Shown here piece by piece: positions 3,731 to 56,716 of a DNA stretch of 64,000 bases (within the stretch, counting starts at the first letter, position 1; each line of letters opens with the position of its first letter). This DNA is from Bacteroidota bacterium (GTDB lineage: Bacteria; Bacteroidota; Bacteroidia; Chitinophagales; Chitinophagaceae): assembly GCA_037144255.1 (NCBI GenBank), contig JBAWXE010000001.1, positions 24,866 through 88,865 of the forward strand, in the 5' to 3' direction. A model generated the notes under the pieces. It did not search any database. It was not told where the DNA came from and saw only the letters and a program-made list of their open reading frames with translations. A program made the position numbers and the translations under genes.

Positions 3731-4897
3731 ATGAAAAAAAACTCTATCGCATTTACTCTCTTTTTGGCAACCATGTATATAGTATTATCAAGCGATATGG
3801 ATGGTGCGGCTCACCATGGTCATGGTAATCTTACTGGTAGTCCTACTGGTGCTGTAGGTCATTGCCAAACAAGTAGTTGTCATGGTGCTAATAACGCACT
3901 TACCATCGTTCAGCTACAAGTTTTAGATACCTCTACCATGTTGCCTATCACTACCTATAACGCATTACAATCCTACCTTGTAACAATTACAGGAAACGAT
4001 ACTGACGTAGCTACCGTTTTACCTGGTTTTGGCTTTCAGGCTTCTACAGTTTTAGGCAATCACACACAGGCAGGTACTTATATCATTCCTTCCAATCTGG
4101 CTAGTAGTATTCATACATATCCATGTGGTAGCACTACTGTAGTAGAACATACTATTGTTTTACACCCCACAAGTGCTAATAGCAATAGATATGCTATTCA
4201 GTTCTATTGGCAAGCACCACCACCTGCCAGCGATAGTGTAACATTCTATTCTGTGTTGAATGCTGTTAATGGGGATGGTGGAAAATCAGGCGATTATCCT
4301 AATGCTGCTCCCAATGTAACTATTTACGAAGATGCATCTACTGCTACTTGTGGCATCCCTACAAATATTGCCGATTCTTTGGTCTCTCCTACCTCTGCAT
4401 TCTTATATTGGACATCAGTACCCGGCGCTATAACTTATAATATACAGTACCGTCCGGTAGGTACTTCTACCTGGAGCAATACTACCGCTACCACCAATTC
4501 AAAAACTATAACAGGGTTAACGCCATCTACTACTTACGAGTTTAGTGTTCAGACAGTATGTTCAGGCAGCCCTAGTTTGTTTAGTCTTTCAAACGATACA
4601 CTCACCACATTGATCAGCAATGGAGTATCTGTCATCAATAATAACATGAGCGACTTTTCAGTATTCCCTAACCCCTCATCTGTCGATGCCAATATTGCAT
4701 ATCACCTACTTACACCTCAGAGAATAAGCATTGCAGTGTACGATATTTTGGGCAATAAAGTAGCACAACCGGTAGATAAGGAAATGCAAAATGTTGGTGC
4801 GCATACATACAAATTAGCAGTTCCTGCTGCTGGTGTATACTTTGTTAGCATGCTATCTGGCAATACTGCATATACTCGTCAGTTTGTAAAACTCTAA
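3731..4897 (+). CDS. Secreted protein with FN3 domain and T9SS type A C-terminal sorting domain
   Basis: 388 aa with a signal peptide. HHGHG and CQTSSCH motifs near the mature N-terminus. FN3-like segment (LYWTSVPGAITYNIQYRPVGTSTW...TTYEFSVQTVC). C-terminal FPNP...VYDILGNKV...GVYFV sorting-domain pattern. Confidence 0.8.
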   Translation: MKKNSIAFTLFLATMYIVLSSDMDGAAHHGHGNLTGSPTGAVGHCQTSSCHGANNALTIVQLQVLDTSTMLPITTYNALQSYLVTITGNDTDVATVLPGFGFQASTVLGNHTQAGTYIIPSNLASSIHTYPCGSTTVVEHTIVLHPTSANSNRYAIQFYWQAPPPASDSVTFYSVLNAVNGDGGKSGDYPNAAPNVTIYEDASTATCGIPTNIADSLVSPTSAFLYWTSVPGAITYNIQYRPVGTSTWSNTTATTNSKTITGLTPSTTYEFSVQTVCSGSPSLFSLSNDTLTTLISNGVSVINNNMSDFSVFPNPSSVDANIAYHLLTPQRISIAVYDILGNKVAQPVDKEMQNVGAHTYKLAVPAAGVYFVSMLSGNTAYTRQFVKL

Positions 4898-5022
4898 GGT
4901 CATGCACAGGAAGAGTTTATGATCTATTTATAGCTAATTCCTTGCTCATCTCCTCCCATTTTCATACCTTTGTAGGGTACAAAGTTCGCATCTTTTTTCT
5001 TCTTATGCGTTCTTTTTCAGGT

Positions 5023-5115
5023 CGGTAATTATTCGGTAAAGGATCGGTAATAAACCGGAAACCAATCGGTAATTTTCGGTAAATGATCAGTAAATTTTCC
5101 GATAGAAACCGGTAA
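5023..5115. repeat. Phased direct-repeat array: 9 CGGTAA-type boxes at 10-12 bp spacing
   Basis: Box starts at 5023, 5034, 5045, 5056 (CGGAAA), 5067, 5077, 5088 (CAGTAA), 5100 (CGATAG) and 5110. Near base-for-base homologue at 45664..45744. Confidence 0.85.
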
Positions 5116-5152
5116 TATTTTAGCCGCATCCACAACAAATCTCCGATTATCT

Positions 5153-5606
5153 AATGTTACAATGTAACCCAAATGTAACTTTTGAAATCACACAACTGAT
5201 TGATTATCAACTATATAAACTACACCTGTAACCAAAAAAATTTTCCAAGTGAATGTAACATTTCAATTTATTTATATGCATATTTTTGAGCAAAAACCAT
5301 CCCTAAGGGATTGCATATTTATAGGAAAATTAAAAAGCAACTTCATCCGTTGCGGATGGTATCGCATATTCAAAAAACAAATGTTACATTGAAAAGCAAA
5401 TGTAACATTTGTAATCTCACAACTAATTGATTATCAAACACTCAAACTTCCCACTTACCATAAAAAATTTTCCAAGAGAATGTAACTTTTGATTGTATTT
5501 ACGTACACCATTCACAACAACCCTATCCCGAAAGGATTACATATTTATAGAAAAGTAGAAAAATATCTCCACCCGATGCCGTAGGTATCGCATATCAAAT
5601 TCCACA
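5153..5606 (+). repeat. Tandem duplication (period ~227 bp) of a non-coding unit: ~100 bp TGTAAC/TTGATTATCAA module plus a hairpin-bearing spacer
   Basis: Landmarks recur at +226/227 bp. TTGATTATCAA at 5200 and 5427. GAATGTAAC box at 5251 and 5478. CATATTTATAG at 5314 and 5540. Hairpins at 5299..5311 and 5525..5537. No ORF of 60 aa or more. Confidence 0.8.
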
Positions 5607-5653
5607 CATTCACCACATTGACGCATTACACACATTGTCACATTGCTCACATT
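5605..5653 (+). repeat. Short tandem repeat, 6 x CACATT(G)nn with 8-9 bp period
   Basis: CACATT (once CGCATT) starts at 5605, 5614, 5622, 5631, 5639 and 5648. Ends 33 bp before the Nif3 ATG. Confidence 0.75.
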
Positions 5654-5685
5654 CCCCTATCTTGCATATCCCTTAAAGCGCTCAT

Positions 5686-6786
5686 ATGTTAGTAAAAGAT
5701 ATCATTCAGGCCATAGAGCAGTTCGCACCCTCCACCTATCAGGAAAGCTATGACAACTCAGGTCTCCAGGTCGGCGATACCCATGCCACAGTTACAGGTA
5801 TACTCCTCAGTCTGGATATTACAGAAGCTATAGTAGATGAGGCTATAGAGCGTCGTTGTAATATGATAGTGTCCCATCACCCACTATTATTCTCCGGACT
5901 CAAACGCATTTCGGGCAACAACTATATAGAACGTATTGTACATAAGGCCATTAAGCACGATATCCATTTATATTCAGTCCATACCAATCTGGATAATGTA
6001 CGCGCTGGTGTCAATGCAGCTTTTGCAGCCCGCCTCGGCTTGCAGAATACCCGCATACTAGCCCCCATGCAGGGCACCTTACGCAAATTATATACATATG
6101 CCCCTGTAGATGTGGCAGAAAAGATCCGACAGGCACTTTTTGCCGCCGGTGCAGGTAATATAGGTGAGTATACAGAATGTAGTTTCAGCTCCGAGGGCGA
6201 CAGTACTTTCAAACCCAGCCTACATGCCAATCCTTTTATTGGTCAGGCTGGTGGCCCTACCGAAAATATTCGCGAGGTAAAGATCGAGGTCATCGTTCCA
6301 CTTCATAATGAAAGAGCAGTACTTAAAGCCCTGTTCGATACTCACCCATATGAGGAGGTTGCCTACGAAATGGTACAACTCCTCAATGAGAACCAAGATC
6401 TAGGTGCAGGTATGATAGGTAACTTACCACAGGCTTTAGATGAAACTGCTTTCCTTTACTTCCTGAAACAACAAATGAAACTTTCTTACATTCGTCATGC
6501 CCCACTATTGGGTCGTCAAATAAAAAAAGTAGCTATTTGTGGGGGCTCCGGTAGTTTCTTACTCAAAGATGCCATGAGGGCAGGTGCTGATATCTTCATA
6601 ACAGGAGATTTTAAATATCATCAATTTTTCGATGCCGATGGGCGTATTGTCATTGCCGATATTGGCCATTACGAGAGCGAGCAATTCACCGTAGAATTAT
6701 TGGCAACGATACTTAACGAAAAATTCCCTAATTTTGCCATTCTTTTATCAATATTATCAACGAATCCTGTAAATTATTTTTGCTGA
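5686..6786 (+). CDS. Nif3-like dinuclear metal centre protein (YbgI/GTP cyclohydrolase 1 type 2 family)
   Basis: 366 aa. N-terminal YDNSGLQVGD and SHHPLLF motifs, central PII-like insert, C-terminal GHYESE motif. Confidence 0.85.
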   Translation: MLVKDIIQAIEQFAPSTYQESYDNSGLQVGDTHATVTGILLSLDITEAIVDEAIERRCNMIVSHHPLLFSGLKRISGNNYIERIVHKAIKHDIHLYSVHTNLDNVRAGVNAAFAARLGLQNTRILAPMQGTLRKLYTYAPVDVAEKIRQALFAAGAGNIGEYTECSFSSEGDSTFKPSLHANPFIGQAGGPTENIREVKIEVIVPLHNERAVLKALFDTHPYEEVAYEMVQLLNENQDLGAGMIGNLPQALDETAFLYFLKQQMKLSYIRHAPLLGRQIKKVAICGGSGSFLLKDAMRAGADIFITGDFKYHQFFDADGRIVIADIGHYESEQFTVELLATILNEKFPNFAILLSILSTNPVNYFC

Positions 6787-31348: not shown

Positions 31349-33004
31349 ATGAAAAAGCTAATTGTACTAATGGGCTTGCTATCTATAACAGTAGTAGCAA
31401 AAGCTCAAACTAATTATCCATCAGGTGTTAGCGGTTGTATTGCTCGATGGAATTTTTCTTCTAGTGGCACCATAACATCTTTGTTTGATGCAAGTGGTAA
31501 TAATAATAGCGCTAACACAACTTCAGCATTAATTGCAGCACCCGGATTTAGAAATTGGATCAATAAAGCTGCAAAATTTGATGGTAATAGTAGTTATGCT
31601 TCTTTACCGAGCAACACTATGTTGTCCCCAACGCAAATTACAATGTTAGCATTGGTAAAAATGAATGGTTTCTATTCAGGTTCTTGCCAAGGTAATCAAA
31701 TAATCATTAAAGGATATACTGGATATGATAATGGTGTATATGGATTGAGTTTTTCTGACAATATTTACGATGGTAGTTGTAGTGTTTTCGACCCCCTACA
31801 TGAACAGTTAGGTCCAACATTAGGCCCTGTCGGCTCTCTTTCAGGTGTATACCCACCTCCAGGCAATTATATTGATACTACTAAATGGTTCTTTGTAGCT
31901 ATAAGTTATGATGGCAACATTGCTAAATTTTATCAGGTTGTTATGGATACGACTATTTACTCTTCAACAATAACTCCTTATTTCACAACTAATAGCTTAA
32001 ATACTCCATTGGGTACCAATACAATGGATTTGGCAATTGGAAGAACTTTTTATGGACCAGATCCATATTGGTTCAATGGTGTGATGGATGAGGTAGTCAT
32101 ATTTAATAGAGTATTAGCTGATTCTGAGGTTCATTCTGTGTATGATTATTTATGGAGGGTTGTTAATATAGACCAACCGGTTACCCCAACTAATATATGT
32201 TCTGGTGATACTTTGCATGTGCATTATGCAGTAAAAGATACTATGAATGCTGGGAATATTTTTACCGTACAGTTGTCTGATGGTAACGGTAGTTTTGCAT
32301 CTCCTGTTGTAATTGGAGCAGTTACATCTACACTGTCTGGTATGATAAATTGTCCAGTGCCAACAAGTACTCCAACAGGTACTGGTTATCGTGTTCGAAT
32401 TGTTTCAAGTTCTCCATATTTTATTTCAAAGGATAATGGAGTTAATATTAGTATTGCTAATTCACCAATAACCCCGACTGTAGTAGTTGCTGCCAACCCT
32501 TCGCTCTCAGTTACTACAGGTACCTTGGTCACTTTTACAGCTAATACTAATATGAGTAATGCCACATTTCAATGGCAGGTCAATAATGTAAATGTGGGAA
32601 CTAATAGCAATTCATATAGTTATATTCCTTTTGACGGAGATCAAGTATTATGTTCTGTAACAGTCCTGAGTGGGTGCTATACAGTATACGAAGATTCTAA
32701 CAAAGTATCTATGCATGTTTATTCAGGTATCAACAATATCAATAAAGGTGTTGACCAAATCTCTATCTACCCAACCCCTAGCAATGGTTCTATTACAGTA
32801 AGTGGTTTGCTTTCAATCATGGATAAGCTAGTATCTTTAGAGGTAATCAATACAATGGGGCAAGTAGTATATACTGAAAAGATAATTGTCAATAATTCAG
32901 TCTTGGATCAAAGGGTATCGTTGAATATTCCTGCAGGTTTGTATATTTTACGCATTAGCTCCAGTCAAAAAGTGATCAATACTCAGTTCACAATTCAGAA
33001 ATAG
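31349..33004 (+). CDS. LamG domain / T9SS sorting-domain protein, paralogue of 28765..30471
   Basis: 551 aa with the same architecture as its paralogue (NGVMDEVVIFNRVLA, FTVQLSDGNGSF...GYRVRIVS, YPTPSNGSI...GLYILRI). Roughly 40-45 percent identity to the paralogue by eye. Confidence 0.75.
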   Translation: MKKLIVLMGLLSITVVAKAQTNYPSGVSGCIARWNFSSSGTITSLFDASGNNNSANTTSALIAAPGFRNWINKAAKFDGNSSYASLPSNTMLSPTQITMLALVKMNGFYSGSCQGNQIIIKGYTGYDNGVYGLSFSDNIYDGSCSVFDPLHEQLGPTLGPVGSLSGVYPPPGNYIDTTKWFFVAISYDGNIAKFYQVVMDTTIYSSTITPYFTTNSLNTPLGTNTMDLAIGRTFYGPDPYWFNGVMDEVVIFNRVLADSEVHSVYDYLWRVVNIDQPVTPTNICSGDTLHVHYAVKDTMNAGNIFTVQLSDGNGSFASPVVIGAVTSTLSGMINCPVPTSTPTGTGYRVRIVSSSPYFISKDNGVNISIANSPITPTVVVAANPSLSVTTGTLVTFTANTNMSNATFQWQVNNVNVGTNSNSYSYIPFDGDQVLCSVTVLSGCYTVYEDSNKVSMHVYSGINNINKGVDQISIYPTPSNGSITVSGLLSIMDKLVSLEVINTMGQVVYTEKIIVNNSVLDQRVSLNIPAGLYILRISSSQKVINTQFTIQK

Positions 33005-33015
33005 TGTCGTTAAAG

Positions 33016-33060
33016 TATAAAAGAGAAAGGGCATCTATAAGATGCCCTTTCTCTTTTATA
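33016..33060. terminator. Bidirectional terminator, 20 bp perfect stem
   Basis: TATAAAAGAGAAAGGGCATC-TATAA-GATGCCCTTTCTCTTTTATA between convergent genes. Confidence 0.85.
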
Positions 33061-33062
33061 CT

Positions 33063-36000
33063 TTAGCTCAATAGGAAAGCTATATCGTCTCTTGTTAGTC
33101 GTTTTAGGAAAGCATTATCATCGGCTACCAGTTCGCTAGCCAAAGTACGTTTGCGTTCCTGCAATATCAGCATCTTCTCCTCTATGGTGTCTTTACAGAT
33201 AAGTCGGTATGCAAATATGTTCTTTGTTTGCCCAATACGGTGTGTACGGTCAATAGCTTGTTGTTCTACAGCTGGGTTCCACCATGGGTCTACAATGTAG
33301 ACATAATCTGCTGCGGTAAGGTTCAGACCTATACCTCCTGCCTTAAGTGATATCAGGAATACACGACAGGAATCATTATTCTGGAATTGTTGAATGTTAC
33401 GTTCTCGTTCCATAGAGGATGAGCCACCATCGAAGTAAGCGTATGGTATACCATGTTCCTCCAGTTTTTGTTTGATAAGCGCAAGCATGCCTAAGAATTG
33501 AGAGAACACCAATGCTTTATGGTTGCCTACGTTCTCTACTATCTCACGTACCAGTTCATCTAACTTAATTGAGTAGTTGGCAAACCTTTCTTCTTCATTC
33601 AGTATGGCTGGAGAGTCGCATATCTGTCTTAGTTTGGTAAGACCTTGTAAAATATGCATATGAGAACGCTCAATGCCTTTCTCATCAATTACTCCTAGTA
33701 TTTGCTCTTTATAAGTATTGCGGTAGGCATCGTAGATCTTTCGTTGATCTGTACCCATTTCACAATACAGAATAGTTTCTGTTTTTTCAGGTAGGTCTTT
33801 GGCTACTTGTTCTTTGGTACGGCGTAGCAAGAATGGATAAATAAGTTTTCTGAGTTGTTGCTTAGTTTCTTCTTCCTGAAATTTATCAATAGGAGTAGCA
33901 AACTCATTCATGAAAAATTCCCTACTACCCAGCATGCCGGGGTTTAAGAAGTTCATTTGTGAATACAAGTCAAAAGTATTGTTTTGTACTGGGGTACCAC
34001 TTAGTGCTAGTCTATTCTTGCTATTCAATAGTAAGGCAGCTTTTGCTACTTGCGACTGCGGATTCTTGATAGCTTGCGATTCATCCAATACTACATAGTC
34101 AAGAGGGAATTCCTTGAATAATTTAATATCGCTACGCATCGTGCCATAAGTAGTGATGATCACATCGCTTTCATCAAAAGAGCTAAATGCTGCACTACGT
34201 TTAGGGCCATGGTGTATGATATGAGTAAGATTAGGAGTGAATTTCTTGATCTCATTCTCCCAGTTATACATCAGGGTAGTAGGGCATACCACCATGAATT
34301 TGGCTTCAGGGTTATTATTCTTATAGTGTTGGAAGAAGGCTAGTGTCTGTACTGTTTTACCAAGACCCATGTCATCGGCCAAAATACCACCCCAACCGGC
34401 TTCTTTCAAAAATGTCAGCCATTGGAAACCACCTAACTGGTAAGGGCGCAGGGTAGCTGTCAGTTGCTCAGGAGGAGGTATGTTGCTATAGTCACTGGTT
34501 ATTATTTCGCTCAGTCGTTCTTTCTTGGCTTCCAATTCTGCTTGTAGTGCATCTTCATCTACATCTTTCAATAATTCATCCAATACGCTGAAGTGAAATT
34601 TCTTGAGGCGCAATTTATTGCCTTTTGCCTCTCCCATTTTCACTAACAACCCATATTTTTTAAGCCACTCTTCCGGCAACAAGCCTATAGATCCATCGTT
34701 CAGTCTAACATAATTCTGACGTTGAGCCAAAGCTTTCTTGACCTCTACTATAGATACTATCTGTTCTCCAAATACAACCTCAACAGATGCATCGAACCAA
34801 TCTATACCACTACTAACTTGTACACGTGTATCTGGCTTGTAAGTGCTGATACGCAGATTTTTTAGCCCCTCGGTACCAAATATTTGCACATCCCACTCAC
34901 GCATGATATCTGTAAAACGGAAGAACCAGTTGTTGGCTAGTACAGATGTTGCAGGTAAATAGAAAAAATGTTCTTTATTGTTTTGTTGTATGTCTGTATG
35001 TAAATGACGGAGCATATGCAGGAACTCTAGTTCTGCAGGCTCATTGCGTTGCACCACCTTTACTATACCATTATGGGGCTGTATCACATTGCCAAAGAAA
35101 CCCCATTTTAGCTCTATGCCATTATAATTGAATGCAGGTTGTAATACCAGCATTTGTTCACGTTCTTGTAAATGTAGTTGATAGCTAGGTTTTGTTTTAT
35201 CTACATGCTCTACCATTTCTTCTGAGAAATGCACATGGGCTATTTGGCTCCATTGCATCACTTTGTTTTTCAAAAAATCTGGCCATTCATTATCAGCAAT
35301 ATGCATATTGCCATCAGGTAAGAATGCTTCTACCATAGCTACTTCTGCTGCATATGCTGCACAGAATAAACGATCGCCGTACATCAACAATGCACCATTC
35401 AGCATTTTTACATCTTCAAAAGGTATGGCAAAACCTTCTATCGCCCATTGTAGGGATATGCTATATGAATTGTCTTCTTTTTTGACATGTAGTTGCGGGT
35501 GAACAGGTTTGCCCACAAATGCAACCGGTTGTATATTAGTAGATGAGATGTTCTTTCCTTTTGTCTTTATAAAACAAAGGGAATGGTCTGAATATCTATC
35601 AAATAATTTATGATACTTAGGTAGTAGATATTCCCATGCCTGATCTCGCACATCCTGAGTAGAATCTTCTTTTAATACAGATTCATAATCATCTAAAAAA
35701 TCACCAAAAGGTAGGTTCTTTCGTAAGTATTTCAGTATTTCTTCAGGTGTAAATTTCCTTACTATTGGTAGCAGGTCTCTTTCCTCTTCTTTGTATCTGG
35801 CTGGGTTGATGTATTGGTTCAGTTGCAATAATTCTATCGCACCACTAAATTTATTCTCATTTTCCACCGCATAGCCGGCTACCAGTGCCACATTTACATA
35901 TGGGTACCAGTTTACTTGAGTATCAACAACAATGCCCAATCTTTTTTCTTCCTCCAGTACTTCTACAGCTGTAGATACCGTTTTGTAGGTATCAGGAGTA

Positions 36001-36791
36001 TTTACCTTTTTAATACTTGGGTCTAATACTCGCAGAAATGGTTTTCCGTCTTCGTATGTAAAAGTGAACTTGTCTGTAATATCATCACTTATACTGTAGC
36101 CATATTGGCGTAGTAGTTTGTTCTTTTGCTCATCCCAGTTCTTCATCGTCTGAAAATACTGAGCACCATGTTCTTTTAATATATGTATGAATAGAGCAGC
36201 TTTATGAGTACATAATGGGAATCCCTTTTCGCTACAAGCGCAGGATGTGTCAAAGTAACGTTCTTCATTTTGCTTGATCACTACTCTATAGGTAGTTTCG
36301 CCATCTACAATATCAGCTTCTATTTTTTCATTTTGATTTAGTACAATACTTGCTTTTTTCTTTGCTACTAGTAATTCGGCAGCTGATAATATCTCTGCAG
36401 ACGCATATACACGCAATATCTGCATATTTACCTGACGCATCCGCACCACAGTGTGTTTCTGGTCATAACTCACATCCGTGTTTTCAAAGAAACCACTTTG
36501 CATGATGTCATTGAGTTGAAAAAGTGCAGCTACTTCATGGCGGCAAATATCCCCCAGATTATAAGGGCATTGACAACGTACTGATATCTCTTTTGGAGTA
36601 GAGAATTTGGATACTGTTACTGTATAATAGTTTTGATACAGGTCATTACGTACCCGGAACCGTACTTGTTCCAATAAATGATCGACATCTAATAAGGAAA
36701 CACCTGCGGTGTAAAAAATCTTTTTACCCCGGCGAATTACCTCTTCAGTGCCATGGTTGTATACGTATCTTAATATGGGTGGTAATGACAT
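33063..36791 (-). CDS. SNF2-family helicase/translocase with two N-terminal SWIM zinc fingers
   Basis: ATG at 36791 (MSLPPILRY...). SWIM motifs CQCPYNLGDICRH and CACSEKGFPLCTH. SNF2 motifs ILADDMGLGKT, DESQAIKN and QAIDRTHRIGQ. Confidence 0.85.
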   Translation of the reverse strand: MSLPPILRYVYNHGTEEVIRRGKKIFYTAGVSLLDVDHLLEQVRFRVRNDLYQNYYTVTVSKFSTPKEISVRCQCPYNLGDICRHEVAALFQLNDIMQSGFFENTDVSYDQKHTVVRMRQVNMQILRVYASAEILSAAELLVAKKKASIVLNQNEKIEADIVDGETTYRVVIKQNEERYFDTSCACSEKGFPLCTHKAALFIHILKEHGAQYFQTMKNWDEQKNKLLRQYGYSISDDITDKFTFTYEDGKPFLRVLDPSIKKVNTPDTYKTVSTAVEVLEEEKRLGIVVDTQVNWYPYVNVALVAGYAVENENKFSGAIELLQLNQYINPARYKEEERDLLPIVRKFTPEEILKYLRKNLPFGDFLDDYESVLKEDSTQDVRDQAWEYLLPKYHKLFDRYSDHSLCFIKTKGKNISSTNIQPVAFVGKPVHPQLHVKKEDNSYSISLQWAIEGFAIPFEDVKMLNGALLMYGDRLFCAAYAAEVAMVEAFLPDGNMHIADNEWPDFLKNKVMQWSQIAHVHFSEEMVEHVDKTKPSYQLHLQEREQMLVLQPAFNYNGIELKWGFFGNVIQPHNGIVKVVQRNEPAELEFLHMLRHLHTDIQQNNKEHFFYLPATSVLANNWFFRFTDIMREWDVQIFGTEGLKNLRISTYKPDTRVQVSSGIDWFDASVEVVFGEQIVSIVEVKKALAQRQNYVRLNDGSIGLLPEEWLKKYGLLVKMGEAKGNKLRLKKFHFSVLDELLKDVDEDALQAELEAKKERLSEIITSDYSNIPPPEQLTATLRPYQLGGFQWLTFLKEAGWGGILADDMGLGKTVQTLAFFQHYKNNNPEAKFMVVCPTTLMYNWENEIKKFTPNLTHIIHHGPKRSAAFSSFDESDVIITTYGTMRSDIKLFKEFPLDYVVLDESQAIKNPQSQVAKAALLLNSKNRLALSGTPVQNNTFDLYSQMNFLNPGMLGSREFFMNEFATPIDKFQEEETKQQLRKLIYPFLLRRTKEQVAKDLPEKTETILYCEMGTDQRKIYDAYRNTYKEQILGVIDEKGIERSHMHILQGLTKLRQICDSPAILNEEERFANYSIKLDELVREIVENVGNHKALVFSQFLGMLALIKQKLEEHGIPYAYFDGGSSSMERERNIQQFQNNDSCRVFLISLKAGGIGLNLTAADYVYIVDPWWNPAVEQQAIDRTHRIGQTKNIFAYRLICKDTIEEKMLILQERKRTLASELVADDNAFLKRLTRDDIAFLLS

Positions 36792-36892
36792 TTGAAAATT
36801 GCACAGTTCAAAAAAGGCAACTCCAAAGATACCGAAAAACAAGTGGATAACGCACAAAAATTGTGGTTAAATCCGGGTTAAAGAAAGATGTT

Positions 36893-45510: not shown

Positions 45511-45663
45511 AATATCAGAGTCGATGAATATTTTCACCAAAGATATACTGCCGATGCTACACATTATTTCCTTTGGAAAAGCCGACCTTTTTTCGTACTT
45601 TTACCATGCCTGCAAGACGTATTTTTTTCCTTTCATACGTCCTTTATATTGCAAAAATATCAT

Positions 45664-45744
45664 CGGTAATTATTCGGTAACGATCGGTAATAAATCGGAA
45701 ATCCATCGGTAATTTTCGGTAATCAGTCGGTAAAGATTCAGTAA
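45664..45744. repeat. Second phased CGGTAA array (8 boxes, 10-11 bp spacing)
   Basis: Box starts at 45664, 45675, 45685, 45696 (CGGAAA), 45707, 45717, 45728 and 45739 (CAGTAA). Collinear with 5023..5115. Confidence 0.85.
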
Positions 45745-45781
45745 CTATTTTAGCTATACCCACAACACATTGTCGATTACC

Positions 45782-45895
45782 AAATGTTACACTGTAACCC
45801 AAATGTAACCTTTGAATTCTCACAACTCACTGATTATCAACCACTCAAACTTCTCGCTAACCATAAAAAAGTTTTTAAGAGAATGTAACCTTACG
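45782..45895 (+). repeat. Third copy of the TGTAAC/TGATTATCAA module
   Basis: AAATGTTACACTGTAACCCAAATGTAACCTTTGAATTCTCACAACTCACTGATTATCAAC...GAATGTAACC aligns with 5153..5265. Confidence 0.8.
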
Positions 45896-45925
45896 TTTTT
45901 TTATAGATGTCAATTCAATACTTTT

Positions 45926-46516
45926 ATGAACATACTCAATATGAATACCATGTCTTTAATTAAAAATAGATCCTGCTTATTTATTATTTGTATTTGTTTC
46001 CTTTCTATTAACTCACTTGCACAGGATAAACAGAAAGTTTTTCAAATGCACGATAATGAATTTATTGAAGCGCGTTTGGGTAAAGTTTTTCCTGTAAATG
46101 AAATTCTTACATCAATCACTGGAGAATTAATTGATCTGAAAAACCTCCACGAACCTTTAATTGTTTTCTTAGGTTTTTGGGGTTGTCATCCTTGTGAATT
46201 TGAATTGCCCATATTAGCCAAAGTATCTAAGATGGGAAAATATAAAAACTATCATTTTGTATATATAACTAAGGACAGGCTTAACAACTTCGAAAAAGAA
46301 TTATCCTCAATGCATTTAGATAGCTTAGGGAATATTAAAGTTGTTTGTGGCCAAGATACAATGATACATAAACGTAAATTGGATAACGGTTACCCTACAA
46401 TGTATTTTATTAATTCAGATTATACAGTTTCACATATAGAAACAGGTGGTAATACTAAGGGTGAAGAAACAGTAGTACTAGAACCTTGGAGTAAAGAATT
46501 GGATAAATTGAAATGA
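45926..46516 (+). CDS. Secreted thioredoxin-like (TlpA/redoxin family) protein
   Basis: WGCHPC CxxC motif. Signal peptide MSLIKNRSCLFIICICFLSINSLAQ. Candidate ATGs at 45926, 45941 and 45950. The track start at 45812 lies inside the repeat module. Confidence 0.7.
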   Translation: MNILNMNTMSLIKNRSCLFIICICFLSINSLAQDKQKVFQMHDNEFIEARLGKVFPVNEILTSITGELIDLKNLHEPLIVFLGFWGCHPCEFELPILAKVSKMGKYKNYHFVYITKDRLNNFEKELSSMHLDSLGNIKVVCGQDTMIHKRKLDNGYPTMYFINSDYTVSHIETGGNTKGEETVVLEPWSKELDKLK

Positions 46517-46530
46517 TTTCAAATACCCCA

Positions 46531-46636
46531 TGTAACCCAAATGTAACTTTTGAATCCACACAACTCATTGATTATCAACTATTCAACTTCCCCTGTAACC
46601 TTAAAAAATTCTCTCAGAATGTAACTTTTGAATTTC
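46531..46636 (+). repeat. Fourth copy of the TGTAAC/TTGATTATCAA module
   Basis: TGTAACCCAAATGTAACTTTTGAATCCACACAACTCATTGATTATCAAC...GAATGTAACTTTTGAA begins 15 bp after the redoxin stop. Confidence 0.8.
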
Positions 46637-46727: not shown

Positions 46728-47495
46728 ATGCATCGCATCTCTCTCATATTCATAGCTTTTATATTAATATTTGCCACACCATTGTCATCATTTGCCTGGG
46801 GCAAAAAAGGCCATAATCTCGTGGCCGATGTAGCTGCCCGTTATATGGATGATGCTACCCGCAAAAAAGTACAACATTATCTGGGTTCCACCACTTTCGA
46901 CGAGGCCAGTACTTGGATGGACGAGATGCGCTCCGACCATAGTTACGATTACATGAAACCATGGCATTATGTAGATTTCCCTAAAGGGAAATTATATAAT
47001 GCCAATACTGAGGAAAATCTGGTGAATGAACTGAACAAGGTGATTGGCGAACTGAATAATAAGAGCAAACTCTCTGATGAACAGATAAAAACGGACATAC
47101 TCATACTTTTCCATCTCGTAGGCGATCTGCATCAACCTTTACATGTAGGTTATGCTGATGATAAAGGCGGTAATGCGATCAAACTTACTTTTATCGACAA
47201 AGCAGATAATCTGCATTGGGTTTGGGACAATGGTATCATAGAAAATAAAAAGGTTATTCTTTCAGATGTAGTTAGGGAGGAGGCAAATTATACCCCTGCA
47301 CAACTGGAACAGCTCAAAAAGATCAATATCGAGAATTGGGTAAATGCTGAACGTCCTTTATTGACCGCAGTATACGATTTCAACAATAATACCATCGATC
47401 AGGCTTACGTAGATCGCAATATTAAGACAGTAGAAACACAATTATTTATAGCCGGTATCAGACTGGCAGCCATTCTGGAGCAAGCATTCAAATAG
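46728..47495 (+). CDS. S1/P1-family secreted nuclease
   Basis: 255 aa. The mature N-terminus WGKKGH and the HLVGDLHQPLH and NLHWVWD motifs are typical zinc ligands of S1/P1 nucleases. Confidence 0.85.
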   Translation: MHRISLIFIAFILIFATPLSSFAWGKKGHNLVADVAARYMDDATRKKVQHYLGSTTFDEASTWMDEMRSDHSYDYMKPWHYVDFPKGKLYNANTEENLVNELNKVIGELNNKSKLSDEQIKTDILILFHLVGDLHQPLHVGYADDKGGNAIKLTFIDKADNLHWVWDNGIIENKKVILSDVVREEANYTPAQLEQLKKINIENWVNAERPLLTAVYDFNNNTIDQAYVDRNIKTVETQLFIAGIRLAAILEQAFK

Positions 47496-55825: not shown

Positions 55826-56716
55826 TTACCCACGGGGATGATTGAGTTTATGTATCTCCTTGAGTTTATCTATATTATTATGCGTATAAACTTGTGTGGC
55901 TGCCAGGCTGCTATGGCCCAAGAGGTCTTTTATAGCCTGTATATTGGCGCCGTTATTCAATAAGTGTGTAGCGAAAGTGTGACGCAATACGTGCGGGCTT
56001 CTTTTTTTGAGAGTAGAGGTCATGGTCAGGTATTTTTTGACCACCCTGTATACATAGCCTGCATATAAAGGTTCGCCACTTTCTAGTACTAACAGGTGTT
56101 TATCGTCATTGGCTATGAGTTTCTTTTTTTCAGTGATATAATTTTTTATTTTGTCCAGTAGCACTGGGCTTACCGGTACTAAACGTTCTTTGTTTCCTTT
56201 ACCTAATATACGAATTTGTTTGAGGCTCCATTCTATGTCTGTTTCTTTTAGTTGCAACAACTCAGAGCGACGCATTCCAGTTTGGTAAAGCAAATCGCAT
56301 ACCAATCTTTCTGTATTGCCTTTAAAACCTTCATCAAATTGCAATTCTTCCATCAAATGCTCTGTTTCGCTTTCCTTCATGAACACAGGTAAGCGTTCAG
56401 GCAGGCGCAAGGCATGCATTTGTCTAACGGGGTTTTTGTCAACTAATTGTCGACGCAATAAATATTTATAAAATGAATTTAGCGTGGAGATCTTTCGGTT
56501 GATGGTACGAGCGGATTGTTTGTCATCTTTGAGAGATGCTAACCAGCTACGAATGTGAAAATGTTCTATTTGTTTTGCGTCTTGACAATCGAACTGATGG
56601 AGCATGAAGGCTTTGAATTGCTCCAGGTCATTTGTATAAGCTGTTAGGGTGAGTGGAGAATATCTTCTCTCAAACCTAAGGTACTGCAGAAAAACCGCTT
56701 GCCATTGCTCTAACAT
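55826..56716 (-). CDS. XerC/XerD-family tyrosine recombinase
   Basis: 296 aa with the catalytic pattern R...HVLRHTFATHLL...GHSSLAATQVYTH. Sits between rpsU and hpf. Confidence 0.85.
   Translation of the reverse strand: MLEQWQAVFLQYLRFERRYSPLTLTAYTNDLEQFKAFMLHQFDCQDAKQIEHFHIRSWLASLKDDKQSARTINRKISTLNSFYKYLLRRQLVDKNPVRQMHALRLPERLPVFMKESETEHLMEELQFDEGFKGNTERLVCDLLYQTGMRRSELLQLKETDIEWSLKQIRILGKGNKERLVPVSPVLLDKIKNYITEKKKLIANDDKHLLVLESGEPLYAGYVYRVVKKYLTMTSTLKKRSPHVLRHTFATHLLNNGANIQAIKDLLGHSSLAATQVYTHNNIDKLKEIHKLNHPRG

What the first reader, a model, noticed from the sequence alone, without database searches (positions are those of the whole stretch)
5023..5115. Helically phased CGGTAA iteron array, present twice in the window
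Nine CGGTAA-type boxes start at 5023, 5034, 5045, 5056, 5067, 5077, 5088, 5100 and 5110, giving intervals of 11, 11, 11, 11, 10, 11, 12 and 10 bp. A near base-for-base copy with eight boxes lies 40 kb away at 45664..45744, with intervals of 11, 10, 11, 11, 10, 11 and 11 bp. A period of about 10.8 bp places every box on one face of B-DNA. Known arrays with this geometry are cooperative protein-binding sites, for example the 11 bp iterons of the plasmid R1 parC centromere bound by ParR, and RHH or Rep iterons. If the region is transcribed, tandem short motifs could instead act as an RNA-binding-protein sponge, as in TRAP or CsrB-type RNAs. Neither copy is coding, and no partition, replication or transposition gene lies nearby. 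I do not recognise the motif from any described Bacteroidota element.
Basis: partly seen in the sequence, partly recalled or inferred. Interest (0 to 1): 0.72.

Follow-up and report, generated by a model that had tools for sequence, protein, structure and literature searches.

The report
Phased CGGTAA boxes in repeated promoter cassette
The two CGGTAA arrays are real and conserved, and each is one module of a roughly 300-bp promoter-plus-leader cassette that a narrow group of Chitinophagaceae has placed in front of unrelated genes; the arrays most likely bind a protein on one face of the DNA, but no partner is known.

Summary
YCGGTAA boxes with a 10-11 bp period lie at 5022-5115 and 45663-45744, far beyond chance.

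They are not a stand-alone duplication. Each array sits 57-92 nt downstream of a Bacteroidota-type promoter (TTG, N19-21, TAnnTTT[G/A]). Each also lies upstream of a conserved, unstructured ~105-bp 'module d', which occurs four times in the window.

A pattern scan found four more arrays with the same architecture in a related organism (metagenome Ga0194037). They lie upstream of unrelated genes (rpsL-rpsG, an S1/P1-type nuclease, NHL-like secreted proteins).

- Across 49 units, box positions carry 1.2-2.0 bits and spacers 0.05-0.5 bits.
- Intervals are 11 (32), 10 (10) and 12 (1), mean 10.8 bp.
- Between the two window copies, box cores differ at 2/48 positions and other positions at 17/40.
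- The cassette faces the downstream gene in 9 of 9 intergenic regions.
- It is absent from NIF3 loci of relatives at ~70% NIF3 identity.
- There is no Rfam, plasmid or phage match, and no par, rep or tnp gene nearby.

Best reading (about 0.4): a cooperative protein-binding operator within a propagated promoter cassette. Rivals are an RNA-level repeat, a selfish mosaic repeat, and curvature alone. It is not a plasmid centromere or an origin. Function is untested.

The parts
4942..4972 (+). Promoter-like site P1 of copy 1: TTG (4942-4944), 20-nt spacer, -7 box TACCTTTG (4965-4972). The inferred start site is near 4977.
   Evidence: Read directly from the sequence; motif scan. The same arrangement precedes all six arrays. 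The -7 box consensus and its -12 to -5 position come from PMC9723704.
4987..5009 (+). Small inverted repeat CGCAT / ATGCG with a 13-nt pyrimidine-rich loop, between P1 and the array.
   Evidence: The counterpart in copy 2 has a different stem sequence (GACGTAT / ATACGTC). Support is weak to moderate (z from -1.0 to -3.4 in four of six copies).
5022..5115 (+). Array 1: nine YCGGTAA-type boxes (six exact), with intervals of 11, 11, 11, 11, 10, 11, 12 and 10 bp.
5116..5152 (+). Conserved spacer after the array (TATTTTAGC...CCACAACA...CGATTA).
   Evidence: Alignment of the two window copies.
5153..5259 (+). Module d, copy 1. It contains GTTAC-N3-GTAAC, then GTAAC-N6-GTAAC (11-bp spacing), CACAACT.A.TGATTATCAAC, an A-run, and GAATGTAAC.
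5377..5486 (+). Module d, copy 2, part of a 227-bp tandem duplication. It has no array of its own.
5595..5654 (+). A second short-period repeat, (T/A)CACATT with a period of 8-9 nt, just upstream of the NIF3 gene.
   Evidence: The same motif flanks arrays and modules in L117-L119.
45572..45603 (+). Promoter-like site P1 of copy 2: TTTG (45572-45575), 20-nt spacer, -7 box TACTTTTA (45596-45603).
45616..45641 (+). Inverted repeat GACGTAT / ATACGTC with a pyrimidine-rich loop.
   Evidence: z = -2.3.
45663..45744 (+). Array 2: eight boxes (six exact), with intervals of 11, 10, 11, 11, 10, 11 and 11 bp.
45745..45782 (+). Conserved spacer after the array.
45783..45889 (+). Module d, copy 3. It ends 51 nt before the ATG at 45941 of an orphan secreted protein.
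46530..46625 (+). Module d, copy 4, without an array. It ends 102 nt before the S1/P1 nuclease gene (46728).

Best explanation
WHAT IT IS (shown). The CGGTAA array is one optional module of a lineage-specific, multi-copy, modular cassette. The cassette lies in intergenic DNA immediately upstream of unrelated chromosomal genes and always faces the gene. Its order is:
- a Bacteroidota sigma-A-type promoter (TTG/TTTG, N19-21, TAnnTTT[G/A]);
- a short inverted repeat with a pyrimidine-rich loop;
- 7-9 YCGGTAA boxes, each followed by a variable 3-4-nt A/T-rich spacer, with a 10-11 bp period;
- a conserved spacer;
- one or more copies of the unstructured ~105-bp module d.

HOW IT MOST LIKELY WORKS (inferred). 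The boxes are recognition sites for a sequence-specific DNA-binding protein. This protein loads cooperatively, one subunit or dimer per helical turn, along one face of about 90 bp of intrinsically curved DNA. The array starts about 45 nt downstream of the inferred start site of the cassette promoter. The resulting filament would therefore act as an operator or roadblock that sets how much transcription from that promoter reaches the downstream gene. Spreading the cassette to many genes would put unrelated genes under one regulator.

A 7-bp conserved box plus an A/T-rich 4-bp spacer in tandem direct repeats is the geometry used by OmpR/PhoB-type winged-helix regulators. It is also the geometry of ParR-type ribbon-helix-helix proteins on R1 parC, whose iterons double as the operator. 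Which protein binds here, and whether it represses or activates, is unknown.
For: Selection on the boxes.
- In 49 units from six arrays, box positions carry 1.2-2.0 bits and spacer positions 0.05-0.5 bits.
- Between the two window copies, the box cores differ at 2/48 positions and other positions at 17/40, p = 1.3e-5. The boxes are therefore selected and are not just recent slippage products.

Spacing.
- Intervals are 11 (32 times), 10 (10 times) and 12 (once), mean 10.79 bp, in two or more organisms.
- The indel between the window copies is 10 bp, about one helical turn.

Curvature.
- Predicted bends are 65-92 degrees per ~100 bp for five arrays, against 32-35 +/- 18 degrees for shuffles.

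Coupling to a promoter.
- All 6 arrays lie 57-92 nt downstream of a -7 box that has a TTG at the proper distance.
- This organism does use that promoter type: the motif is enriched 3.4-fold in intergenic DNA and lies 8-35 nt before start codons (consensus from PMC9723704).

Other support.
- Module d has further DNA-site-like features: GTAAC-N6-GTAAC at 11-bp spacing, and the palindromes GTTAC-N3/4-GTAAC and TTGATTATCAA.
- The array region has no conserved or unusually stable RNA fold.
- Precedent: the 11-bp iterons of parC are operator sequences and the DNA is strongly curved (PMC2241845).
Against: - No candidate binding protein was identified. The window encodes no response regulator, no ribbon-helix-helix protein and no obvious transcription factor next to either array.
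- The downstream genes form no coherent regulon: NIF3, an orphan secreted protein, nucleases, NHL-like proteins and rpsL-rpsG.
- The array is not at the position where OmpR/PhoB-type activators work. It lies downstream of the -7 box and at least 180 bp from the gene start.
- The distance from promoter to array (57-92 nt) and from array to module d (82-137 nt) is not fixed.
- One cassette (L115) works without any array, at least structurally.
- Position downstream of a promoter and strict strand orientation fit an RNA-level role equally well.
- The curvature estimate uses wedge parameters recalled from memory.
- Only six arrays from two or three uncultured organisms are available.
Confidence: 0.4

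Rival explanations
1. RNA-level repeat. The cassette promoter transcribes the array as part of a long 5' leader or a non-coding RNA. The 7-9 single-stranded UCGGUAA motifs then recruit or titrate a multimeric RNA-binding protein. The logic resembles TRAP, HutP or CsrB, but with a different motif and spacing. The effect would be on stability, termination or translation of the downstream message.
For: - Every array is 57-92 nt downstream of a canonical -7 box, and the whole cassette is co-oriented with the downstream gene in 9 of 9 intergenic regions.
- An inverted repeat with differing stems but a similar pyrimidine-rich loop lies between promoter and array.
- The sense strand is G-poor, like other transcribed intergenic regions of this genome.
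- The array and module d are predicted to be largely unstructured and therefore accessible.
Against: - A 10-11-nt period has no special meaning for RNA, and it equals the DNA helical repeat. Known RNA-binding repeat systems use 5-6-nt periods (TRAP) or motifs in hairpin loops (Csr); neither is seen here.
- Many downstream genes have their own proximal -7 box, for example 46703 before the nuclease gene, so a long leader is not needed.
- There is no Rfam match.
- No transcription data are available.
Confidence: 0.25
2. Selfish or neutral mosaic repeat. The array is a minisatellite-like module of a BIME/BOX/MITE-like intergenic repeat family that spreads by recombination or transposition. It has no function of its own, and box uniformity reflects concerted evolution.
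For: - The cassette is modular, with variable content. L115 lacks the array.
- Module d occurs alone or in tandem.
- REP-like hairpins are inserted inside module d in L115-L117.
- An extra module (GAGAGATCTCCTGAGCATTTGCAAT) flanks the array in L117.
- There is a 227-bp tandem duplication in the window.
- Module d is framed by a short inverted repeat, AATGTTACA...TGTAACATT.
- The family is confined to a narrow clade and is absent from NIF3 loci of ~70%-identity relatives, where the intergenic region is only 35-166 bp.
- The closest relative (93% NIF3 identity) has a different module content at the same locus.
Against: - Neutral slippage or gene conversion would homogenise spacers as well as boxes, yet the spacers are nearly random while the boxes are nearly invariant.
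- Copies in different organisms are as similar as copies within one genome (75-89%).
- Orientation is 9/9 toward the downstream gene, with no inverted copies in 64 kb, which is not expected of a freely inserting element.
- No target-site duplications or long terminal inverted repeats were found around the whole cassette.
Confidence: 0.2
3. Structural DNA element only. The phased alternation of CGG with A/T-rich runs makes a static bend or an easily wrapped segment. This modulates the neighbouring promoters, like an UP element or curved-DNA effect, without a dedicated sequence-specific protein.
For: Predicted curvature is about two standard deviations above shuffles in all five arrays tested. 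The spacers are A/T-rich.
Against: Curvature needs only phased A/T tracts. It does not explain near-invariance of C2, G4, A6 and A7 across 49 units. The array lies downstream, not upstream, of the nearest promoter-like site.
Confidence: 0.1
4. Plasmid-type centromere (parC/ParR-like) or replication-origin iterons, the analogy offered by the first reader.
For: There are 11-bp direct repeats in series of 7-9 with predicted curvature, as in R1 parC (PMC2241845).
Against: - No parM/parA/parR or rep gene is present anywhere in the 64-kb window, and the setting is ordinary chromosomal housekeeping.
- There are at least two arrays in 64 kb, and four more on separate contigs of a relative, each in front of a different gene.
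- Each array is a single cluster, not two clusters flanking a promoter.
- No similarity to any plasmid or phage record was found.
Confidence: 0.03

Closest known systems
R1 parC centromere/operator bound by ParR (ribbon-helix-helix)
   Same: Tandem direct 11-bp repeats in series; intrinsically curved DNA; the repeats are also the operator of an adjacent promoter; about one dimer binds per repeat (PMC2241845).
   Different: parC has two sets of five repeats flanking the promoter, sits on a plasmid, and lies next to parM and parR. Here a single set of 7-9 boxes lies downstream of the promoter. It is chromosomal and dispersed before unrelated genes, and no par genes are present.
OmpR/PhoB-family response-regulator operators (pho boxes; Streptomyces PhoP direct repeat units; B. 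subtilis PhoP TT(A/T/C)ACA repeats). Described from my own knowledge.
   Same: Head-to-tail direct repeats of a conserved 6-7-bp core plus an A/T-rich 4-5-bp spacer, with 10-11 bp centre-to-centre distance. Multi-unit operators also occur in that family.
   Different: Those boxes normally overlap or abut the -35 region of the regulated promoter, and their regulons are functionally coherent. Here the boxes lie after the -7 box and the genes are heterogeneous. No response-regulator gene lies nearby, and the motif TCGGTAA is not a described pho box.
Mosaic intergenic repeat families (E. coli BIME/REP, pneumococcal BOX A-Bn-C, Neisseria Correia elements) and 'promoter propagation' / putative mobile promoters. 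Described from my own knowledge.
   Same: Multi-copy, intergenic and modular, with variable module number. Some members carry promoters and alter expression of the adjacent gene. Homologous upstream regions lie before non-homologous genes.
   Different: Those families are built from hairpin-forming palindromes or have terminal inverted repeats, and they insert in both orientations. This cassette is largely unstructured, is strictly gene-oriented (9/9), and contains a helically phased box array that those families lack.
Protein-titrating or protein-recruiting RNAs with repeated short motifs (CsrB/RsmZ, the TRAP-binding trp leader, HutP sites). Described from my own knowledge.
   Same: Many copies of a short motif at regular spacing on one strand, downstream of a promoter.
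   Different: The motif is not in hairpin loops. The period is 11 nt rather than 5-6 nt. There is no Rfam match, and CsrA/TRAP-type partners are not known in Bacteroidota.

Membership tests
Type II plasmid partition centromere (parC/ParR) | Tandem ~11-bp direct iterons bound cooperatively | tested here: inconclusive
   The repeat geometry is present. Binding cannot be tested in silico.
Type II plasmid partition centromere (parC/ParR) | Adjacent parR and parM (or parA/parG) genes, with iterons in two clusters flanking the par promoter | tested here: not met
   Pfam scans of all larger ORFs of the window found no partition proteins. Each array is a single cluster downstream of the promoter-like site.
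Type II plasmid partition centromere (parC/ParR) | Located on a low-copy plasmid or prophage replicon, one site per replicon | tested here: not met
   The context is chromosomal housekeeping (NIF3, ETF, RF-1, PFK, FBPase). There are two arrays in 64 kb and four more in a relative. No plasmid or phage similarity was found.
Replication-origin iterons (Rep-binding) | An adjacent rep gene, an A/T-rich unwinding element and DnaA boxes, with iterons usually 17-22 bp | tested here: not met
   No rep gene is present. The unit is 11 bp. Only 7/9 matches to the DnaA box were seen by eye. Multiple dispersed copies also argue against an origin.
OmpR/PhoB-type response-regulator operator | Direct repeats of a 6-7-bp core plus an A/T-rich spacer with a 10-11 bp period | tested here: met
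   The 7-nt core carries 1.2-2.0 bits per position. Spacers are A/T-rich and variable. Intervals are 10-11 bp in 42 of 43 cases.
OmpR/PhoB-type response-regulator operator | Boxes overlap or abut the -35 region of the regulated promoter, and the regulon is functionally coherent | tested here: not met
   The arrays start 57-92 nt downstream of the -7 box and end at least 180 bp before the gene start. The downstream genes are heterogeneous. The PhoU/PHO4 operon in the window has no boxes upstream.
OmpR/PhoB-type response-regulator operator | A cognate winged-helix response regulator that binds the boxes | not testable with these tools
   No Trans_reg_C protein is encoded in the window. The rest of the genome is not available.
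Protein-sponge or leader RNAs (CsrB, TRAP, HutP types) | The region is transcribed on the motif-bearing strand | not testable with these tools
   Only a promoter-like site upstream of all six arrays is available as evidence. There are no expression data.
Protein-sponge or leader RNAs (CsrB, TRAP, HutP types) | Motifs presented in hairpin loops (Csr) or as triplets separated by 2-3 nt (TRAP) | tested here: not met
   The folds are not more stable than shuffles (z = -1.9 and -0.5), and the boxes are not in recurrent loops. The period is 11 nt.
Any Rfam family | A match at or near the gathering score | tested here: not met
   There were no hits at gathering thresholds in the window or in L115-L120. 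Only chance-level hits appeared with the E-value threshold.
Mosaic intergenic repeats (BIME/REP, BOX, Correia, MITE) | Multi-copy, intergenic, modular with variable module content | tested here: met
   There are 13 module-d copies and 6 arrays, with different module combinations per locus.
Mosaic intergenic repeats (BIME/REP, BOX, Correia, MITE) | Hairpin-forming units or terminal inverted repeats with target-site duplication, inserted in either orientation | tested here: not met
   Module d has no consensus structure. Only a short 9-16-nt inverted repeat frames module d, and none frames the cassette. Orientation is 9/9 toward the gene.

The most novel reading that the evidence does not exclude
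A narrow Chitinophagaceae clade has propagated a promoter cassette carrying a 7-9-box, helically phased operator in front of unrelated genes, including rpsL-rpsG, NIF3, secreted nucleases and T9SS-type secreted proteins. One still unidentified oligomerising DNA-binding protein would then coat about 90 bp just downstream of each start site and co-regulate them. That would be a dispersed, iteron-style global regulatory system not described in Bacteroidota, and an observable case of regulon growth by promoter propagation.
Probability: 0.25. Interest if true: 0.7.

Novelty: new variant of a known kind. Interest (0 to 1): 0.55.

Why it matters
Iteron-like arrays of many helically phased boxes are known mainly from plasmid centromeres, plasmid origins and a few operators. 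It is unusual to find them dispersed on a chromosome, embedded in a copied promoter cassette in front of unrelated genes. No such arrangement has been described for Bacteroidota, whose transcriptional regulation is poorly charted. If a binding protein exists, the family would show how a regulon can grow by copying a ready-made promoter-plus-operator module. It would also supply a compact, portable regulatory part for Bacteroidota genetics. If no partner exists, the family is still a clean example of a new modular intergenic repeat with strong box-specific constraint, which would need another explanation.

Tried and rejected
1. Genome-contig scan with TCGGTAA(N3-5)x3.

2. Viral contig scans. 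Module-d core hits were chance-level (nhmmer E > 7e-4, partial). CGGTAA arrays there are perfect repeats in unrelated contexts.

3. Orthologous-locus tracing through NIF3 homologues. This was informative only negatively: relatives at ~70% identity have short upstream regions without the family. One contig had no DNA available.

4. S12 homologue search. The hits were too conserved and had heterogeneous gene calls, so they were no use for fetching rpsL upstream regions.

5. Search with the orphan protein at 45941-46516. It returned only itself.

6. Small-ORF reading of module d and of the minus strand of the arrays. Rejected, because frames are broken by indels, other copies contain stops, and substitutions show no synonymous bias.

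7. Module d as a structured RNA. Rejected: zero consensus pairs in 12 copies.

8. Module d as a sigma-A or ECF promoter.
- The plus-strand GTAACnTTTG is one base off the -7 consensus.
- TGTAAC-N16-CGTC occurs in only a few copies.
- A perfect minus-strand -7 box, TACATTTG, is present in the four window copies, and TACCTTTG at the same place in L118. It is lost where a hairpin element is inserted. This point is left open.

9. DnaA box, sigma-54, IHF, Fur/Zur and KorB resemblances were checked by eye. Only partial matches were found, so none was pursued.

10. Literature searches by motif returned nothing relevant.

11. Fixed helical phasing between promoter, array and module d was not found; the distances vary.

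Full report
OBSERVATION

Exact CGGTAA occurs at 5023, 5034, 5045, 5067, 5077 and 5110, and at 45664, 45675, 45685, 45707, 45717 and 45728. The remaining listed boxes are one- or two-mismatch variants: CGGAAA, CAGTAA and CGATAG. TRF finds both arrays with period 11, and also 21-22. In 500 first-order Markov simulations of the 64-kb window, no run of three exact boxes at 10-12 bp spacing occurred. Neither region is coding. Only short ORFs overlap the arrays, and indels between the copies break their frames.

THE ARRAYS ARE PART OF SOMETHING LARGER

Aligning the two loci shows homology (81% identity) over about 310 bp, from about 4960 to 5275 and from about 45570 to 45900. The shared order is as follows.

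- (i) A promoter-like site of the Bacteroidota sigma-A type. Copy 1 has TTG 4942-4944, a 20-nt spacer and TACCTTTG 4965-4972. Copy 2 has TTTG 45572-45575, a 20-nt spacer and TACTTTTA 45596-45603.
- (ii) A short inverted repeat with a pyrimidine-rich loop. The stems differ between copies: CGCAT/ATGCG versus GACGTAT/ATACGTC.
- (iii) The array.
- (iv) A conserved spacer.
- (v) A ~105-bp 'module d'. It contains GTTAC-N3-GTAAC, then GTAAC-N6-GTAAC, CACAACT.A.TGATTATCAAC, an A-run, and GAATGTAAC.

Module d occurs four times in the window (5153-5259, 5377-5486, 45783-45889, 46530-46625). Two of these copies have no array. All four are on the plus strand, upstream of plus-strand genes: NIF3 at 5686, an orphan secreted protein at about 45941, and an S1/P1 nuclease at 46728.

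RELATIVES

A metagenome scan with a module-d pattern returned five contigs (L115-L119), all from one sample, Ga0194037. None overlaps the window's genes. Their S12 protein is closest to Chitinophagaceae/Chitinophagales sequences.

- Four of the five contigs carry a CGGTAA-type array of 7-9 boxes upstream of module d.
- In each, a well-conserved promoter (aacaaataTTTGtt, N21, TAT[A/C]TTT[G/A]) lies 57-92 nt upstream of the first box.
- The fifth contig, L115, has the promoter, the post-array spacer and module d, but no array.
- The downstream genes are rpsL-rpsG (L118), an S1/P1-type nuclease (L116), NHL-like secreted proteins (L117, L119) and a Cys-rich protein (L115).

With L120, a sister organism with 93% identical NIF3, nhmmer finds 13 module-d copies. 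They occupy nine intergenic regions, always facing the downstream gene.

NIF3 loci of relatives at ~70% identity have upstream regions of only 35-166 bp and no family member. The NIF3 homologues place the window in Chitinophagaceae, near Flavipsychrobacter-like lineages. The family is therefore confined to a narrow clade, as far as these data reach.

EVIDENCE THAT THE BOXES ARE CONSTRAINED

- Across 49 units from the six arrays, the seven box positions (Y-C-G-G-T-A-A) carry 1.2-2.0 bits each. The spacer positions carry 0.05-0.5 bits and are A/T-rich.
- Between the two window arrays, box cores differ at 2 of 48 positions. The other positions differ at 17 of 40 (Fisher p = 1.3e-5).
- Intervals are 11 bp (32), 10 bp (10) and 12 bp (1), mean 10.79.
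- The only larger indel between the window copies is 10 bp.

Slippage or gene conversion alone would homogenise spacers too. Something reads the boxes and cares about their spacing.

DNA OR RNA?

For DNA:
- The period equals the helical repeat.
- A 7-bp core followed by an A/T-rich 4-bp spacer, in head-to-tail repeats, is the geometry of winged-helix response regulators. It is also that of ParR on R1 parC, where the 11-bp iterons are also the promoter's operator and the DNA is strongly curved (PMC2241845).
- A wedge-model calculation predicts bends of 65-92 degrees per ~100 bp for five arrays, against 32-35 +/- 18 degrees for shuffles (the parameters were recalled from memory).
- Module d adds more DNA-site-like motifs: another 11-bp-spaced GTAAC pair and two palindromes.
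- Neither the array nor module d has a conserved RNA fold.

For RNA:
- All six arrays lie downstream of a canonical -7 box. This genome clearly uses that box: TAnnTTTG is enriched 3.4-fold in intergenic DNA and lies 8-35 nt before start codons. The consensus and its -12 to -5 position come from PMC9723704.
- The cassette is strictly gene-oriented.
- The sense strand is G-poor, like other co-directional intergenic regions.
- A small hairpin with differing stems lies between promoter and array.

No transcription data are available, so this question remains open. I weigh the helical period, and the lack of any RNA precedent for an 11-nt period, as favouring DNA.

WHAT IT IS NOT

- There is no Rfam match.
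- There is no similarity to plasmid or phage records.
- Pfam scans of essentially all ORFs of the window show ordinary chromosomal genes and no partition, replication, transposase or response-regulator gene. The only recombinase is a XerC/D-like gene at 55826-56716.
- A centromere or origin reading is contradicted by the multiple dispersed copies in front of different genes.
- A classical MITE or REP reading is contradicted by the lack of structure, the lack of cassette-level inverted repeats, and the 9/9 orientation. The modular, plastic composition does resemble mosaic repeat families and 'promoter propagation'.

CONCLUSION

Shown:
- a real, conserved, helically phased box array;
- box-specific constraint;
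- membership in a dispersed, gene-oriented promoter cassette restricted to a narrow Chitinophagaceae clade.

Inferred, with confidence of about 0.4:
- the boxes are a cooperative protein-binding operator lying just downstream of the cassette promoter.

The rivals are an RNA-level repeat (0.25), a selfish mosaic repeat with no array function (0.2), curvature alone (0.1), and a plasmid-type centromere or origin (0.03). The finding is a new variant of known kinds (iteron-style operators and mosaic intergenic repeats), with no sequence relative in the libraries searched.

Noticed in passing
window 5170, 5397, 45800, 46538 (minus strand): The conserved CCCAAATGTAAC of module d reads TACATTTG on the minus strand, a perfect Bacteroidota -7 box pointing back toward the array (L118 has TACCTTTG at the same place). 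It could drive antisense transcription through the array, convergent with the cassette promoter. It is lost in copies where a hairpin element is inserted.
   Followed up: partly
L118 ~6680 (minus strand) and L119 277-290, 498-511; window 5156-5168, 45786-45798: The Ga0194037 copies have a perfect 14-bp palindrome, GTTACACGTGTAAC. The extended TGTTACACGTGTAACC matches the parS consensus TGTTNCACGTGAAACA (recalled from memory) at 13 of 16 positions, with symmetric mismatches. The window copies have a 13-bp version (GTTAC-N3-GTAAC), one base shorter.
   Followed up: no
window 5595-5654; L117, L118, L119 around the arrays; L191 6624-6656 and 10293-10335: A second short-period repeat, (T/A)CACATT with a period of 8-9 nt, accompanies the cassette. 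Similar 8-nt repeats (ATGTGATG, CATTATCA) occur in intergenic DNA of a more distant relative that lacks the CGGTAA family.
   Followed up: partly
window 5116-5342 and 5343-5569: A 227-bp tandem duplication contains module d plus a 71-bp unit with two small hairpins (5299-5369 and 5525-5595). On the minus strand these hairpins are followed by T-runs and were flagged as terminator-like.
   Followed up: partly
L115 ~9230 and ~9500, L116, L117, L119 ~400-440: A REP-like hairpin, TCCCGAAC(N4-5)TTCGGGA, recurs many times in the Ga0194037 organism. In L115, L116 and L117 it is inserted inside module d, between CCCAAATG and GTAAC.
   Followed up: no
L115 ~9110, L116, L118, L119 ~25-40: The cassette promoter of the Ga0194037 organism overlaps a perfect 14-bp palindrome, AACAAATATTTGTT, that contains the -33 TTTG. 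This is a possible separate operator.
   Followed up: no
L117 1355-1400, 1535-1580, ~1760: Another module (GAGAGATCTCCTGAGCATTTGCAAT, with the palindrome GAGATCTC) occurs three times in one intergenic region and flanks the array on both sides.
   Followed up: no
window 3731-5685 compared with L121, L189-L191 and the contig of P0010: Relatives have the order OEP, a 128-aa gene, then NIF3, with only 35-166 bp before NIF3. The fn3/T9SS gene (3731-4897) and the 788-bp repeat-filled intergenic region are a lineage-specific insertion.
   Followed up: partly
window 33011-33065: A perfect 26-bp inverted repeat with a 3-nt loop lies between the convergent genes 31349-33004 and 33063-36857. It is probably a bidirectional terminator.
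   Followed up: no
L005, L089, L097 (Acutalibacteraceae MAGs); L164, L174, L181 (viral contigs): Unrelated TCGGTAA tandem arrays with a 10-11 bp period exist in Firmicutes MAGs and in viral contigs. They are mostly perfect repeats with different flanks, and some look like plasmid or phage iterons. They have no homology to the cassette described here.
   Followed up: partly
window, whole: Even outside the two arrays, CGGTAA is more frequent than dinucleotide shuffles predict: 39 occurrences against 16.4 +/- 4.4 expected. This may reflect codon usage.
   Followed up: no
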